From an uncultured virus (IMG/VR IMGVR_UViG_3300042400_001601) (lineage: Duplodnaviria; Heunggongvirae; Uroviricota; Caudoviricetes): a stretch of 64,000 bases of DNA. Below are positions 54,200 through 62,991 of the stretch, in pieces. The position numbers were made by a program, and so were the translations under genes. The stretch is taken from IMG/VR virus record IMGVR_UViG_3300042400_001601. The stretch is one strand, 5' to 3'. The notes under the pieces are model-generated. The model was not told where the DNA came from, did no database searches, and saw nothing but the letters and a program-made list of their open reading frames with translations. How positions within the stretch are numbered: position 1 is the first letter of the stretch; each line of letters starts with the position of its first letter.

Positions 54200-54934
54200 A
54201 TGGAACTTAAACTGGTTAAGAAAGATTTTGCAGATAACTTCTTAAATGTTATTAGCAAAACAGTCGACATTGCTTCTATTAAAGCAAATTCAAACGGTAT
54301 TTATACGGTTTGTAATAAACCCGATACTAGTATTATCCTTCTTGGCAAATACAATACTCCCTTAGATCTTACTGAAGAGGTTACTCTTAATATAGGAGAT
54401 ATTAAAAAACTATTAAGAGTGGTAGATTGTATTGAAGACGAAAATGTTGTATTTAAGATTAATAGTAATAATCTTACCTACAAATCCCCCAGTGTCCAGT
54501 TTAAGTACCACTTTTTAGATGATTCTATTGTACCTAAAGTTTCTCTTAAAAAAGAGAAAATAGAAAATCTAGAGCTTGATACTTTCTTTGATCTTGACTA
54601 TAAAAAGTTTCAAGAGATTCTTAAGGCTAGTTCATTTACTACTGATACTAATAAAATTTATATTTTCGGTCAACCTGATGGTTGCTATTGCGAACTAGGA
54701 GACAAAGAAAAAAGCAATACCGATAGCATTGTACTTAAGATTTGTGATACAATAGAAGGACAGCCTTTGTCTCACGTAATACCGTTTAATCTTGATATTT
54801 TTAGAGTGATATCTGGTATACGCTTCGAGAGAGCGCGTATCGGTATTAATCTTAAGTTTAAAGTGCTTTCTTTTTTTATTAAACCAACTAACGAGACAGA
54901 ATTTAAATTTATTATTTCGGGTCTAGTTAAGTAA
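54200..54934 (+). CDS. gp45: Sliding clamp, gp45-like
   Basis: 244 aa; IGDIKKLL, FKYH motifs and clamp-like size in the replication cluster. Confidence 0.75.
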   Translation: MELKLVKKDFADNFLNVISKTVDIASIKANSNGIYTVCNKPDTSIILLGKYNTPLDLTEEVTLNIGDIKKLLRVVDCIEDENVVFKINSNNLTYKSPSVQFKYHFLDDSIVPKVSLKKEKIENLELDTFFDLDYKKFQEILKASSFTTDTNKIYIFGQPDGCYCELGDKEKSNTDSIVLKICDTIEGQPLSHVIPFNLDIFRVISGIRFERARIGINLKFKVLSFFIKPTNETEFKFIISGLVK

Positions 54935-60363: not shown

Positions 60364-60407
60364 TTGACTTTAAGAGAAAAAGTACCATTATATGTAAATA
60401 TTAAATA
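60364..60407 (+). promoter_or_regulatory. Putative promoter region of leader/tRNA operon
   Basis: TTGACT (60364-60369) with CATTAT (60386-60391); two TAAATA boxes (60395-60400, 60402-60407). Confidence 0.55.
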
Positions 60408-60411
60408 ACAA

Positions 60412-60498
60412 ATGATCAAATCCATAACCAGTTCAACAATTAATCCAGCACAATGCGATACATTCGCCTGGGTTCATTATGAACTGGGCAGGGTTTAA
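60412..60498 (+). CDS. Putative attenuator leader peptide (28 aa, contains all 20 amino acids)
   Basis: Manual translation MIKSITSSTINPAQCDTFAWVHYELGRV*; stop codon lies inside the antiterminator arm. Confidence 0.75.
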   Translation: MIKSITSSTINPAQCDTFAWVHYELGRV

Positions 60499-60555
60499 AG
60501 CAAATTTTCTAACGAAAAACTTTAAACCCTAGGCCTTAAAAACCTAGGGTTTTTT
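60490..60555 (+). terminator. Mutually exclusive antiterminator / intrinsic terminator (attenuator)
   Basis: AGGGTTTAAAG (60490-60500) pairs with CTTTAAACCCT (60520-60530); AAACCCTAGG (60524-60533) pairs with CCTAGGGTTT (60543-60552), T-tract to 60555. Confidence 0.85.
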
Positions 60556-60781
60556 AATGCGAGCTGCCGCTAACCAAGCAGCCAAGACGTCTTATAAGAG
60601 GCATCCAAACCGGCGAATAAAAAGCCGATAGGGGTGAGATCAATAAGTTCTTTATTAGATGAAATAGAGCGGCCCCGGACGCTCTTTAAAACAATTCGCC
60701 GGGCCTTTTTCCTGCCTGCACTGAAGTCTGGGTCCATATCCAGGAAGCAGCAATGCTCTAGGTGCAGCGTGGGACTATTTT

Positions 60782-60871: not shown

Positions 60872-61243
60872 TTATACAGCATTGTATGCTGTGTTGTAAT
60901 CTCGATTTTTATTTTGAAGCAATCTATATAAAACTTTGTCGTTCCCCGTTTGTTTTACTTCAGCATCATTTATATACTTATTTACAGTGTTGTAATCTTT
61001 ATTAAGCCAAGCAATAGTACCTAAATAGTATTTTACTATACCTTGAGAATCGTCGGTTTTAGCTTGGGTAGCTGCTTTATTCATCATAGATATAGCTTCT
61101 TGCGTTTTACCTTGAATAGCTAATTCTTGAGCAGCATGCCAAGTGTCTAGTGAAGGAATATTTAGCGGGTTAGTGTTACCCGTATAATTTTCGATTAACG
61201 ATGAAAGATACAAATTTACCCTTTTATCAAATTTCATATACAA
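60872..61243 (-). CDS. Hypothetical helical (TPR-like) protein antisense within the tRNA array
   Basis: 123 aa; MKFDKRVNLYLSSLIE N-terminus; TAAATA directly upstream. Confidence 0.65.
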   Translation of the reverse strand: MYMKFDKRVNLYLSSLIENYTGNTNPLNIPSLDTWHAAQELAIQGKTQEAISMMNKAATQAKTDDSQGIVKYYLGTIAWLNKDYNTVNKYINDAEVKQTGNDKVLYRLLQNKNRDYNTAYNAV

Positions 61244-61251
61244 TATTTATT

Positions 61252-61343
61252 GGAAGCGTGGGTGAGTGGATAAAAATCGCTTGTCTTGAAAACAAGAATC
61301 GGTGATGAGCCGGTCGTAGGTTCGAATCCTACCGCTTCCGCCA
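61252..61343 (+). tRNA. tRNA-Ser(TGA)
   Basis: GGAAGCG/CGCTTCC acceptor, CTTGT-CT-TGA-AA-ACAAG, long variable arm, GCCA end. Confidence 0.92.
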
Positions 61344-61348
61344 ATTTT

Positions 61349-61547
61349 GCGCGAGGGGTAACCAATAGTCGGTTCTTCAATGGGCCAGTACCCTGAGTGG
61401 GCTGAGAAATACCAAGCACAAACAGGAAACCCGTGCCGGACTAGTACGGAAGTAGGAAGAGATGCATCTCGCTCCCTACAAGTCGGGGTTGGACGAAATT
61501 GCTTGGGGCTCTAAGAAGGTAAGGTTGACAGCCTCCCTCGCGCGCCA
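61349..61547 (+). ncRNA. Unidentified structured RNA with tRNA-like acceptor stem and CCA end
   Basis: GCGCGAGGG (61349-61357) pairs with CCCTCGCGC (61535-61543), followed by GCCA; several internal stems; spaced like a tRNA between Ser and Tyr genes. Confidence 0.75.
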
Positions 61548-61552
61548 TTTTT

Positions 61553-61637
61553 GGGAGTATGGCACAGCGGCAACTGCAGGAGACTGTAAATCTCCCGCCT
61601 TCGGGCTTCATTGGTTCGAGTCCAATTGCTCCCACCA
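61553..61637 (+). tRNA. tRNA-Tyr(GTA)
   Basis: GGAGA-CT-GTA-AA-TCTCC, variable arm, ACCA end. Confidence 0.95.
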
Positions 61638-61643
61638 CTTTAA

Positions 61644-61725
61644 GCGGACGTGTCGTAATGGTAGCCGAGATGGTCTTAGAAGCCATTGCTTATGCGTGTG
61701 GGTTCGAGTCCCTCCGTCCGCACCA
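61644..61725 (+). tRNA. tRNA-Leu(TAG)
   Basis: GCGGACG/CGTCCGC acceptor, ATGGT-CT-TAG-AA-GCCAT, ACCA end. Confidence 0.92.
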
Positions 61726-61744
61726 CTTTAAAATAAATATTATT

Positions 61745-62026
61745 ATGAAAACACTAGCATTGCTTATTATTAGTTTGACTATGACCGGCTGCTACGCATC
61801 CCCGGTTATTCGTGGCCCTCGAGTAATTGTTGTTGATCCGCATCCTCGGGTAATTATTGTTGAACCAGCTCCTCGAGTAATTGTAACGAGAGAATACCCT
61901 CGTTATCCTAGTGTTTCGTGGCATATTGATGTAAATTTTGGACGGGGTCACGGTCATGGCCATGTTTACGGCCCTATTCGTGGTCATTCGAATCCTGGCA
62001 TTTGGCGTCACTATCGCCATTGGTAA
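61745..62026 (+). CDS. Small lipoprotein with PRVIV repeats and His/Gly/Arg tail
   Basis: MKTLALLIISLTMTGC lipobox-like signal; TAAATA at 61734-61739. Confidence 0.7.
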   Translation: MKTLALLIISLTMTGCYASPVIRGPRVIVVDPHPRVIIVEPAPRVIVTREYPRYPSVSWHIDVNFGRGHGHGHVYGPIRGHSNPGIWRHYRHW

Positions 62027-62029
62027 TTT

Positions 62030-62117
62030 GGAAGGATGGCTGAGCGGCCTATAGCAGAAGTTTACTAAACTTCCGAAGAGCAATCTTCCGGGGGTTCGAA
62101 TCCCTCTCCTTCCGCCA
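62030..62117 (+). tRNA. tRNA-Ser with anticodon ACT (A34)
   Basis: GGAAGGA/TCCTTCC acceptor, G discriminator, long variable arm, GAAGT-TT-ACT-AA-ACTTC. Confidence 0.88.
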
Positions 62118-62316: not shown

Positions 62317-62991
62317 ATGAGTTTAGTTTTTGAAAAAATACTACCTTTAGTTAATAAAATTACCGAAAAATTTAATTTGGTATCATATGAAATTACAGAA
62401 GAAGGTATTAAGGATTACGACTGGTATAATAAAATTTTTTATTCTTTTAACAAATTTAGAAGAGCTCATATAGAAGTTCTAGATCGTAGAGAACAAAACA
62501 ATATGTGGATAATGCATACCACCGTTTTTCCGCATTTAGATGATGATGCGCCTATATTTGGTTTCGATATAATTTGTACAGGTAATAAGGTGTCTGGAGT
62601 GTTTCATGATCTATCTATTACAACTAACCCTAACCATCCATTACAGGTAAACTTTAAAAAACTAGTTAGTAATTTAACTTGGAAAAGAGAAAGAGAATTA
62701 CCCGAATGGGGCAAAGCAATTTTTTCGGAAGATATGATCGCCGCAGGTGGAAGTAATACTGAACAAGAACTACAGCAAATAGTGGATGTCTGTTTAGAAA
62801 GCTTAGATGTTTATTTGAGAAACATAGGAGCTACAAATTTTCCAAGTCCAATTTCATCCAAAGAAATGCAGAATAGATATTGCAAGTATCAAAAGATGAA
62901 TCCATACCCAGTTAAGATGTTAACTAATTTTGGATTGACAGAAGAGCAGGCTCGTCAGTTTGTTGAAAAACATCTCTTTCCTGAAGTTTAA
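62317..62991 (+). CDS. Ferredoxin-dependent bilin reductase (PcyA/PcyX family)
   Basis: FRRAHIE, MH...FP, PIFGFD, FHDLS, RELPEWG..IFS, QNRYC..QK.NP. Confidence 0.88.
   Translation: MSLVFEKILPLVNKITEKFNLVSYEITEEGIKDYDWYNKIFYSFNKFRRAHIEVLDRREQNNMWIMHTTVFPHLDDDAPIFGFDIICTGNKVSGVFHDLSITTNPNHPLQVNFKKLVSNLTWKRERELPEWGKAIFSEDMIAAGGSNTEQELQQIVDVCLESLDVYLRNIGATNFPSPISSKEMQNRYCKYQKMNPYPVKMLTNFGLTEEQARQFVEKHLFPEV

What the first reader, a model, noticed from the sequence alone, without database searches (positions are those of the whole stretch)
61349..61547. ~199-nt tRNA-mimic-ended ncRNA of unknown class within the tRNA array
Seen: a 9-bp terminal stem plus G-CCA, positioned like a tRNA (5-nt spacers on each side) but about 2.5 times longer and without a canonical T-loop. 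Internal helices: CCAAGCA/TGCTTGG (61412-61418/61500-61506), CCGTGC/GTACGG (61431-61449), and GTAGG/CCTAC (61452-61479) enclosing the palindrome GAGATGCATCTC. Established: T4 encodes CCA-ended stable RNAs (species 1 and 2) of unknown function in its tRNA cluster. Inference: a processed stable RNA, possibly aminoacylated or a decoy for host tRNA-targeting defences, co-induced by the attenuator.
Basis: partly seen in the sequence, partly recalled or inferred. Interest (0 to 1): 0.7.

Follow-up and report, generated by a model that had tools for sequence, protein, structure and literature searches.

The report
New tRNA-shaped RNA in phage tRNA array
Between two tRNA genes of an uncultured lake phage related to T4 lies a real, conserved 199-base RNA gene that has a tRNA-like end but a quite different folded body; it fits no catalogued RNA family and its job is unknown.

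Summary
The element is real. Window 61349-61547 (+) sits 5 nt after tRNA-Ser and 5 nt before tRNA-Tyr. It has a 9-bp G+C-rich terminal stem and an encoded G-CCA, and neither ARAGORN nor Rfam matches it.

The stem plus CCA alone is not beyond chance, and folding energy is unremarkable (z -1.4). Relatives give the proof. Copies lie on 16 further contigs, and 14 copies were aligned (12 distinct sequences, five sequence types). All are in tRNA arrays of uncultured lake T4-like phages, in differing slots. Of 57 proposed pairs, 20 change on both sides and stay paired (0 of 500 shuffles reach this).

The fold is a four-way junction:
- an almost invariant acceptor-like stem;
- a D-like hairpin;
- a T-position hairpin that has a 3-4 nt loop, not a T-loop;
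- a long arm ending in a conserved three-way junction, one of whose loops pairs with the D-like loop.

Contigs from four RNA libraries cover the element but not the flanking coding DNA.

It is not homologous to T4 RNA C/D, tmRNA, RNase P RNA or ROOL/GOLLD. Most likely it is cut out like a tRNA and acts as a stable RNA through its conserved core. Aminoacylation, decoy and attenuator roles remain untested.

The parts
61349..61357 (+). P1, 5' strand of the terminal (acceptor-like) stem, GCGCGAGGG
   Evidence: Read. 8 of 9 pairs never vary in 12 distinct sequences and one shows G-C to G-U. L140 has one extra U-G pair.
61360..61374 (+). P2, D-like hairpin AACC-AAUAGUC-GGUU. Loop bases 61366-61370 (UAGUC) pair with 61439-61443.
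   Evidence: C-G to U-G in 4 sequences. The loop complements the P5 loop; L140 has GUGGU with ACCAC instead.
61375..61378 (+). P3a, 5' strand (CUUC), base of the long arm; pairs with 61515-61518
   Evidence: 3 of 4 pairs change on both sides. 2 of 4 do so in the MAFFT alignment that was not fitted to a model.
61384..61404 (+). P3b 5' strand (61384-61386) and a variable side hairpin, followed by an A-rich linker (61405-61411)
   Evidence: The hairpin is kept with a different sequence in types B and C. It is missing in L188 and remodelled in L140. The A-rich run is kept in all.
61412..61417 (+). P3c, 5' strand CCAAGC; pairs with 61501-61506
   Evidence: 4 of 6 pairs change on both sides.
61418..61429 (+). 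5' side of the large internal loop (…ACAGGAAA); sequence conserved
   Evidence: ACAGGAAA is invariant in the 11 sequences.
61430..61433 (+). P4, 5' strand CCCG; pairs with 61484-61487 (CGGG)
   Evidence: Invariant in types A-D. All 4 pairs change on both sides in L140, GAGC/GCUC.
61436..61449 (+). P5 hairpin CCG-GACUAGUA-CGG. Loop bases 61439-61443 (GACUA) pair with the P2 loop.
   Evidence: 1 of 3 stem pairs changes on both sides. In the loop-loop helix, 1 of 5 pairs changes on both sides and 1 on one side, with 100% of cells paired.
61452..61479 (+). P6: GUAGG/CCUAC around an inner stem GAGA/UCUC with loop UGCA; the inner 12 nt are a perfect palindrome
   Evidence: outer stem 2 of 5 pairs change on both sides, inner stem 2 of 4. 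The UGCA loop is kept in all types, L140 included.
61484..61500 (+). P4 3' strand (61484-61487) and the 3' side of the large internal loop (…UUGGACGAAAUU); sequence conserved
   Evidence: UUGGACGAAAUUGC is invariant in the 11 sequences.
61501..61518 (+). 3' strands of P3c (61501-61506), P3b (61507-61509) and P3a (61515-61518)
61522..61534 (+). P7, hairpin in the T-arm position, AGGUU-GAC-AGCCU. It is not a T-loop; the loop is GAC, AAC or AAA, and GAAA in L140.
   Evidence: 1 pair changes on both sides, 1 on one side.
61535..61547 (+). P1 3' strand CCCUCGCGC, discriminator G (61544) and encoded CCA (61545-61547)
   Evidence: 10 of 12 distinct sequences encode N-CCA; the discriminator is G, A or T; L187 and L195 lack a full CCA.
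61252..61343 (+). Upstream neighbour tRNA-Ser(tga), CCA encoded; the spacer is 61344-61348
61553..61637 (+). Downstream neighbour tRNA-Tyr(gta); the spacer is 61548-61552

Best explanation
This is the gene of a discrete, structured, non-coding RNA of a previously uncatalogued family. It is carried as a cassette in the tRNA arrays of one lineage of uncultured freshwater T4-like phages.

Shown:
- The RNA folds as a four-way junction.
- A 9-10 bp acceptor-like stem ends in N-CCA, and a short hairpin directly abuts it (no linker base).
- A D-like hairpin and a long arm make up the other two branches.
- The long arm ends in a sequence-conserved three-way junction (P4/P5/P6).
- The P5 loop is complementary to the D-like loop.

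Inferred:
- The RNA is transcribed with the neighbouring tRNAs.
- Host RNase P frees its 5' end, and the 3' tRNA-end machinery (trimming, and CCA repair where the CCA is not encoded) frees its 3' end.
- The tRNA-like minihelix therefore serves as a processing and stability handle.
- The nearly invariant acceptor end and the conserved core are the working parts. They most likely bind a conserved host or phage macromolecule of tRNA or translation metabolism.

The identity of that partner is unknown.
For: Placement:
- The element sits 5 nt from a tRNA on each side, on the tRNA strand.
- All 22 tRNAs and the tmRNA of this phage encode CCA, and most are followed by T-rich spacers, as this element is.
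- The base before the 5' end is T in every copy whose 5' flank was printed.

Family:
- Homologs were found on 5 IMG/VR contigs and 11 metagenome contigs besides the window's own record.
- Every locus also holds tRNA genes. The slots differ: Ser-X-Tyr, His-X-Trp, X-Trp, and after tRNA-Lys.

Structure:
- In a MAFFT alignment of 11 sequences, 6 of 52 pairs change on both sides.
- In the 14-row model-fitted alignment (12 distinct sequences), 20 of 57 pairs change on both sides and 99.4% of cells pair. 0 of 500 shuffles reach this, and slid controls give at most 6.
- The divergent L140 copy matches the whole model at 56 bits, E about 1e-13.
- G-U pairs would be A-C on the other strand, which fixes the strand as +.

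Selection:
- Nucleotide identity to relatives is 79.5-98%, within the range of the neighbouring tRNA genes (72-100%).
- The nearby DUF5856 gene is 68-78% identical.
- G+C is 55% against 36% for the window.

Expression hint:
- In 4 of 4 RNA libraries laid, contigs cover the element. None covers 61000-61310 or 61744-61900.
- Two contigs, from two studies, consist only of its interior: 61367-61542 and 61375-61543.
Against: - No experiment shows a discrete transcript or its ends. Contigs cannot show ends, strand or level, and one RNA contig runs on into tRNA-Tyr.
- Folding energy is not exceptional (z -1.41).
- The stem plus CCA alone is within chance.
- 15 of the 20 pairs that change on both sides rest on the single divergent sequence L140, in an alignment fitted to the model.
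- The loop-loop pairing has only one change on both sides, and it could form between molecules rather than within one.
- The family is narrow. It was found in 0 of 10 larger related virus records and in none of the other loci searched with the models.
- Nothing identifies a binding partner.
Confidence: 0.6

Rival explanations
1. The RNA acts through its 3' end. Either an aminoacyl-tRNA synthetase charges it, so that it serves as a non-ribosomal amino-acid donor or competitor, or it soaks up host enzymes or toxins that act on tRNA acceptor ends.
For: - The acceptor stem, the 2-nt linker and the D-like stem are almost invariant, even in L140, while other helices covary freely. That suggests sequence-specific recognition of this end.
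- The first 7 bp match the phage's own tRNA-Gly(gcc) and tRNA-Cys(gca) acceptor stems at 6 of 7 positions each.
- CCA is encoded in 10 of 12 distinct sequences.
Against: - The discriminator is G, A or T, and 2 of 12 distinct sequences lack a full CCA.
- There is no T-loop, no anticodon-like loop with U33 and no G3-U70.
- Many tRNAs begin GCG, so a 6-of-7 match is weak.
Confidence: 0.15
2. The RNA assembles into dimers or larger homo-oligomers: a small counterpart of ROOL and GOLLD, which are also encoded near phage tRNA islands. The loop-loop pairing (D-like loop with P5 loop) and the palindromic UGCA hairpin would form between molecules.
For: - The self-complementary UGCA loop is kept in all five types. 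It sits in a 12-nt palindrome in types A-D and an 8-nt palindrome in L140.
- Predicted dimers gain 16.7 kcal/mol (types A-D) or 10.1 kcal/mol (L140) over two monomers.
- In a tRNA-like stacking of the junction the D-like loop points away from the long arm, so an intramolecular contact would need a sharp bend (my inference).
- In ROOL, a kissing loop first read as tertiary turned out to be quaternary (passages read in PMC12286853).
Against: - Any palindromic hairpin gives a favourable cofold energy.
- Covariation cannot tell pairing within a molecule from pairing between molecules.
- At 199 nt the RNA is far smaller than ROOL or GOLLD, and Rfam shows no relation to them.
Confidence: 0.1
3. It is a cis-acting part of the polycistronic tRNA precursor, such as a folding insulator or an entry or measuring site for processing nucleases. 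It would have no role once it is cut out.
For: - It is always inside arrays and directly abuts a tRNA on at least one side.
- The same genome has a Pistol ribozyme hit directly after tRNA-Val, so these arrays do carry processing elements.
Against: - It moves between slots with different neighbours.
- About 80 nt of its core are nearly invariant in sequence, far more than an insulator needs.
- L140 lacks it in the Ser-Tyr slot, where those tRNAs sit 63 nt apart.
Confidence: 0.1
4. It is a decayed tRNA gene with an insertion in the anticodon arm: a pseudogene, or an intron-bearing tRNA.
For: - The cloverleaf-like layout.
- AGUCGGUU in the D-like arm and GGUU…CC in the T position resemble tRNA D-loop and T-arm sequences. 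This resemblance is recalled, not tested.
Against: - Covariation and near-invariance extend across the 'insert'.
- No anticodon loop would remain after removing any segment.
- No group I or group II intron hit at E<=10, and about 135 nt is shorter than the smallest group I introns I recall.
- RNA-library contigs hold the 'insert' unspliced.
Confidence: 0.03

Closest known systems
Phage T4 RNA C and RNA D (species 1 and 2 stable RNAs; rnaC, rnaD)
   Same: - They are encoded inside the tRNA cluster of a T4-type phage, on the tRNA strand, a few bases from tRNA genes.
- They are longer than tRNAs.
- RNA C has a tRNA-type T arm, and CCA is encoded at the end of RNA D.
- Their roles are unknown (passage read in PMC3014915).
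   Different: - No sequence or structure homology: the family model scores RNA C at 0.4 bits and RNA D at -0.2 bits.
- The topology differs. This RNA has a 9-bp closing stem, no T-loop, a three-way-junction core and a loop-loop pairing.
- The sizes are 199 nt against 139 and 119 nt.
tRNA (Rfam RF00005)
   Same: - Four-way junction.
- G+C-rich acceptor stem followed by N-CCA.
- 2-nt linker to a 4-bp hairpin with a 7-nt loop.
- Slot and spacers like those of the neighbouring tRNAs.
   Different: - 9-10 bp acceptor stem.
- No G18G19-type D loop, no 7-nt anticodon loop, and a 3-4 nt loop where the T-loop should be.
- About 140 nt in place of the anticodon arm.
- Not called by ARAGORN or by the Rfam tRNA model.
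tmRNA (tRNA-like domain joined to another domain)
   Same: A tRNA-like acceptor end is fused to a large non-tRNA domain, and the gene lies in a tRNA array. This phage has its own tmRNA there.
   Different: - G3-C70, not G3-U70.
- No T arm, no tag reading frame of the usual kind, and half the size.
- No tmRNA or permuted-tmRNA hit.
ROOL and GOLLD RNAs
   Same: They are phage or prophage RNAs often encoded near tRNA islands. Their function is unknown, and kissing loops are central to their architecture (passages read in PMC12286853).
   Different: They are said there to be far larger; GOLLD members often exceed 800 nt. They lack a tRNA-like CCA end, and no Rfam match to either occurs here.
YrlA (bacterial Y RNA-like, tRNA mimic)
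   Same: A non-coding RNA with a tRNA-like module; some are phage-encoded (abstract and listing of PMC4201824).
   Different: As I recall, YrlA carries real T and D arms at the far end of a Ro-binding stem, not a CCA-ended closing stem. No YrlA hit lies on this element.

Membership tests
tRNA | Recognised by tRNA detectors (cloverleaf with 7-bp acceptor stem, D loop, 7-nt anticodon loop, T-loop) | tested here: not met
   ARAGORN makes no call and Rfam RF00005 gives no hit at E<=10 over 61349-61547. The hairpin in the T position has a 3-nt loop.
tRNA | Acceptor stem closed by the 5' and 3' ends, followed by a discriminator and CCA | tested here: met
   9-bp stem, then G, then CCA. 10 of 12 distinct family sequences encode N-CCA.
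tmRNA | Match to tmRNA models; G3-U70 alanine identity pair; T arm; tag reading frame | tested here: not met
   No ARAGORN or Rfam tmRNA or permuted-tmRNA call on the element. Pair 3-70 is G-C. The phage's true tmRNA lies elsewhere.
T4 RNA C / RNA D | Stable non-tRNA RNA encoded within the tRNA cluster of a T4-type phage | tested here: inconclusive
   Location is met. Stability and discrete ends are only hinted at by RNA-library contigs.
T4 RNA C / RNA D | Sequence or structure homology to rnaC or rnaD | tested here: not met
   The family model, run with filters off on the T4 tRNA region, scores rnaC at 0.4 bits and rnaD at -0.2 bits. blastn against 50,697 phage records finds no match.
ROOL / GOLLD | Match to the Rfam models | tested here: not met
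   No hit at E<=10 in the window region or at E<=1 in five homolog loci.
Self-cleaving ribozymes (pistol, hammerhead, twister, hatchet, HDV-like) | Match to the Rfam models | tested here: not met
   No hit on the element. The search does work in this genome: a Pistol hit was found after tRNA-Val.
RNase P RNA | Match to any Rfam RNase P model (P4 pseudoknot and conserved regions) | tested here: not met
   No hit at E<=10. P4 here is a nested helix, not a pseudoknot.
RNase P substrate (tRNA-like minihelix) | Cleaved by RNase P at the base of the acceptor stem | not testable with these tools
   Inferred only, from the stem-plus-hairpin stack, the T at position -1 and the N-CCA.

The most novel reading that the evidence does not exclude
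This would be a new class of tRNA-shaped phage RNA. A tRNA-processing handle with an invariant Gly/Cys-like acceptor stem carries a conserved three-way-junction module. The complementary loops (D-like loop with P5 loop) and the palindromic UGCA hairpin join copies into a defined homo-oligomer. Alternatively, the acceptor end is charged or captured by a host tRNA enzyme or defence toxin. Either way it would be a small, tractable relative-in-kind of ROOL and GOLLD, and a working answer to what the non-tRNA RNAs of T4-type tRNA clusters do.
Probability: 0.2. Interest if true: 0.8.

Novelty: new variant of a known kind. Interest (0 to 1): 0.6.

Why it matters
Small stable RNAs that are not tRNAs have been known in the T4 tRNA cluster since the 1970s (from my recall), and their roles are still unknown (PMC3014915, passage read). 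ROOL and GOLLD show that phage tRNA islands hold elaborate RNAs, also of unknown function.

This family adds a compact case of about 200 nt with good covariation. It has a clear two-part design: a tRNA-like handle with an invariant end, and a conserved core locked by a loop-loop pairing. At that size the RNA could be made in vitro and tested for RNase P cleavage, CCA addition, charging, oligomer formation and protein binding.

It also shows that tRNA arrays of lake T4-like phages are mosaics. Non-tRNA cassettes move between slots as tRNA genes do.

Tried and rejected
**Chance pattern matches**
- L037, found by the stem pattern, is G+C-rich DNA that shares only the two stem strands.
- L186 lies in coding-like DNA with no tRNA gene nearby.
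- L203 and eight bacterial contigs, L208-L215, gave no model hit and hold no tRNA.
- The 24-nt blast matches in L013, L015 and L017 have weak E-values (0.18-0.64); the L017 match, the only one checked, lies inside a 957-aa reading frame.
- A core pattern found nothing in genome contigs.

**Known families**
- T4 RNA C/D: a shared 8-mer and a similar 5' hairpin in RNA D looked suggestive by eye, but the model gives no score.
- tmRNA, RNase P RNA (an 'AGGAAA plus helix' resemblance to conserved region I, recalled), a sarcin-ricin-like UAGUACG (not conserved in types B-D), group I intron, hammerhead-like CUGA…GAAA, YrlA and ωRNA of the nearby HNH gene (193 aa, an ordinary HNH). None is supported by Rfam.

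**Searches that found no further members**
- The structural scan for other N-CCA-closed long stems in relatives' arrays found nothing convincing.
- Models R1 and R2 found no further member beyond L140 over the 171 and 175 held sources searched or in 10 larger related virus records.
- Such absences in fragments prove little.

**Other dead ends**
- Cofold energies cannot show dimerisation.
- The catalogue of viral candidate RNAs in PMC10690425 reports lengths of 29-151 nt (passage read). A search of its supplements for two motifs and two contig numbers found nothing, but files 1, 2 and 4 could not be searched. So a fragment of this RNA may already be listed there.
- Earlier notes of this scan hold no look-alike sequence.

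Full report
**What is at the coordinates.** Window 61349-61547 (+) lies between tRNA-Ser(tga) (61252-61343) and tRNA-Tyr(gta) (61553-61637), with 5-nt spacers ATTTT and TTTTT. Its first nine bases pair perfectly with 61535-61543, followed by G and CCA. ARAGORN calls seven tRNAs in the window and nothing here. Rfam gives only the seven tRNAs at gathering score, and no hit on the element at E<=10.

The minimum-energy fold is a cloverleaf-like four-way junction. It has a terminal stem, a 4-bp hairpin with a 7-nt loop, a long arm, and a 5-bp hairpin with a 3-nt loop where a T arm would be.

On its own this is not compelling:
- The energy has z = -1.41, and 17 of 200 shuffles fold at least as well.
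- Perfect stems of >=9 bp followed by N-CCA occur 7 times in the window. Random sequences gave a mean of 3.4 and a maximum of 6 in 30 trials.

**The genome.** The window is part of a 119,783-bp IMG/VR virus record, estimated 57% complete. It is a T4-like myovirus:
- Structural and replication genes: gp23, gp20, gp15, a family-B DNA polymerase, UvsX-, UvsY- and UvsW-like proteins, a gp41-like helicase, gp32 and RNase H.
- 7-deazaguanine pathway genes.
- A bilin reductase.

No cultured phage is close: the best gp32 matches are at or below 31% identity. The record carries 22 tRNA genes and a tmRNA, all with encoded CCA and mostly T-rich spacers. DNA runs that hold the stretch are labelled lake water.

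**Relatives.** blastn against 50,697 phage records found nothing. The collection scans gave these copies:
- Near-identical copies, 98%: L038 and L039.
- An 83.6% copy between tRNA-His and tRNA-Trp: L144.
- Copies on 11 of 11 metagenome contigs that matched a 20-base pattern, 79.5-98% identical.
- A much more divergent copy, found by a covariance model built from 11 sequences: L140:7830-8011, just before tRNA-Trp, at 56 bits, E about 1e-13, matching the full length of the model.

Besides the window's own record, that makes 16 contigs. Fourteen copies were aligned, giving 12 distinct sequences in five types:
- A: the window's type.
- B: the L144 type.
- C: L195.
- D: L188, which lacks the side hairpin.
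- E: L140.

Every locus also holds tRNA genes, but the slot differs.

The models found no further member beyond L140 over the 171 (R1) and 175 (R2) held sources searched, and none in 10 larger related virus records, 4 of them at least 90% complete. Eight bacterial contigs and one viral contig that matched a loose 5' pattern are chance matches. The family is therefore narrow and patchy.

**Structure.** The MAFFT alignment of 11 sequences, not fitted to any model, already shows 6 of 52 consensus pairs with changes on both sides. I then used the model-fitted alignment that includes L140 and added the loop-loop helix:
- 20 of 57 pairs change on both sides.
- 99.4% of cells form standard pairs.
- 0 of 500 shuffles reach any of the five measures.
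- Sliding the partners by 1-3 columns gives at most 6 such pairs and at most 47% pairing.

| Helix | Pairs changing on both sides |
|---|---|
| P3a | 3 of 4 |
| P3c | 4 of 6 |
| P4 | 4 of 4 |
| P5 | 1 of 3 |
| P6 outer | 2 of 5 |
| P6 inner | 2 of 4 |
| P7 | 1 of 5 |
| Loop-loop helix | 1 of 5, plus one wobble-compatible change |
| P1 | 0 of 9 (8 never vary, 1 G-C to G-U) |
| P2 | 0 of 4 |

Two caveats apply. 15 of the 20 pairs that change on both sides rest on L140 alone. And a fitted alignment leans towards its own structure.

The loop-loop pairing is UAGUC with GACUA in types A-D. In L140 it is GUGGU with ACCAC, shifted by one column.

About 80 nt of the core are nearly invariant in types A-D. 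This stretch includes ACAGGAAA, the P5 loop, P6 with its UGCA loop, and UUGGACGAAAUUGC.

**Selection and mobility.** Nucleotide identity of the element to relatives is 79.5-98%. That is within the range of the flanking tRNA genes (72-100%), and the nearby DUF5856 gene is 68-78% identical. Identity levels jump from gene to gene along the array, so the arrays are mosaics of cassettes.

**Expression.** Four RNA libraries from three studies were laid on 61000-61900.
- Contigs cover the element in all four runs.
- None covers 61000-61310 or 61744-61900, which argues against DNA carry-over as the source.
- Two contigs, from two studies, consist only of the element's interior: 176 nt at 61367-61542 and 169 nt at 61375-61543.
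- One contig runs on into tRNA-Tyr, and one runs in from tRNA-Ser.

Contigs cannot show ends, strand or abundance. This is a hint of a stable RNA, no more.

**How it most likely works.** The following steps are inferred:
- The 9-10 bp stem directly abuts the P7 hairpin with no linker, so the two probably stack on each other (inferred). With a T before the 5' end and N-CCA, this makes the kind of minihelix that RNase P and the 3'-end and CCA enzymes accept (established knowledge, recalled).
- The RNA is probably excised from the array transcript like its neighbours, and protected like a tRNA.
- The near-invariance of P1, the linker and P2, while other helices drift, points to sequence-specific recognition of that end.
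- The invariant core points to a second recognition surface or a ligand site.

What it binds is unknown.

Against charging stand the variable discriminator (G, A or T) and the loss of CCA in 2 of 12 distinct sequences. The first 7 bp match the phage's tRNA-Gly(gcc) and tRNA-Cys(gca) stems at 6 of 7 positions each. That is a weak lead.

The conserved self-complementary UGCA loop, together with the geometry of the loop-loop contact, leaves homo-oligomerisation open.

**Comparison with known RNAs.** It works like the T4 RNA C/D kind: non-tRNA stable RNAs of T4-type tRNA clusters, with roles unknown (PMC3014915, passage read). It is not homologous to them. It shares with tmRNA only the idea of a tRNA-like end joined to another domain. 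It shares with ROOL and GOLLD only the genomic setting and the use of kissing loops (PMC12286853, passages read).

Earlier notes of this scan list several other uncatalogued kissing-loop RNAs in phage tRNA arrays. None is a sequence look-alike of this one. Those notes are unchecked leads, not support.

I found no description of this family in four full-text searches. The alignment files of PMC10690425 could not be searched.

**Verdict.** This is a real, new family of structured RNA with a tRNA-like handle. The function is unknown and the distribution is narrow. Interest 0.6.

Noticed in passing
G000:C1:89706-89757 (L122:5707-5758), outside the window: A Pistol self-cleaving ribozyme hit (39.8 bits, gathering score 34.5) lies directly after tRNA-Val in the same phage's tRNA array.
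   Followed up: no
G000:C1:88439-88842 (L122:4440-4843), outside the window: The phage encodes its own tmRNA inside the tRNA array (Rfam 103.5 bits). Two relatives, L003 and L004, carry a permuted tmRNA upstream of the bilin-reductase gene.
   Followed up: partly
window 60364-60781: A leader lies before tRNA-Thr. It has a promoter-like site (60364-60391), mutually exclusive hairpins ending in a T-run (about 60490-60557), and then a stretch of about 220 nt. That stretch is conserved in L142 (97.7%), L140 (88.9% over 153 nt), L144 and L063, and matches no Rfam family. A 20-base motif from it occurs in 13 IMG/VR contigs: 7 have tRNA-Thr right after it, and 6 have no tRNA within 3 kb.
   Followed up: partly
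window 62030-62117: tRNA-Ser with the unusual anticodon ACT (A at the wobble position). It is kept in L140, L187, L188, L193 and L195, while L063 has tRNA-Ser(gct) instead.
   Followed up: no
L063:20048-20154; L144:8716-8822 and other gaps in relatives' arrays: Relatives' arrays hold other non-tRNA, tRNA-like inserts that no tool names. One is about 107 nt, with a G3-U70-type acceptor stem and a true T arm. Another ends in a T-arm-like hairpin plus CCTTCCTC-A-CCA.
   Followed up: partly
window 60872-61243 (-): A 123-aa reverse-strand reading frame splits the array between tRNA-Thr and tRNA-Ser. The gap is about 200 nt shorter in L039. A promoter-like site at 61215-61244 (+) precedes tRNA-Ser.
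   Followed up: no
window 54201-54510: An 11-bp perfect inverted repeat, about 300 nt apart, turned up in the stem scan on both strands.
   Followed up: no
window 62317-62991: A ferredoxin-dependent bilin reductase gene (Pfam E 1e-19) lies directly after the first tRNA block of a lake T4-like phage.
   Followed up: no
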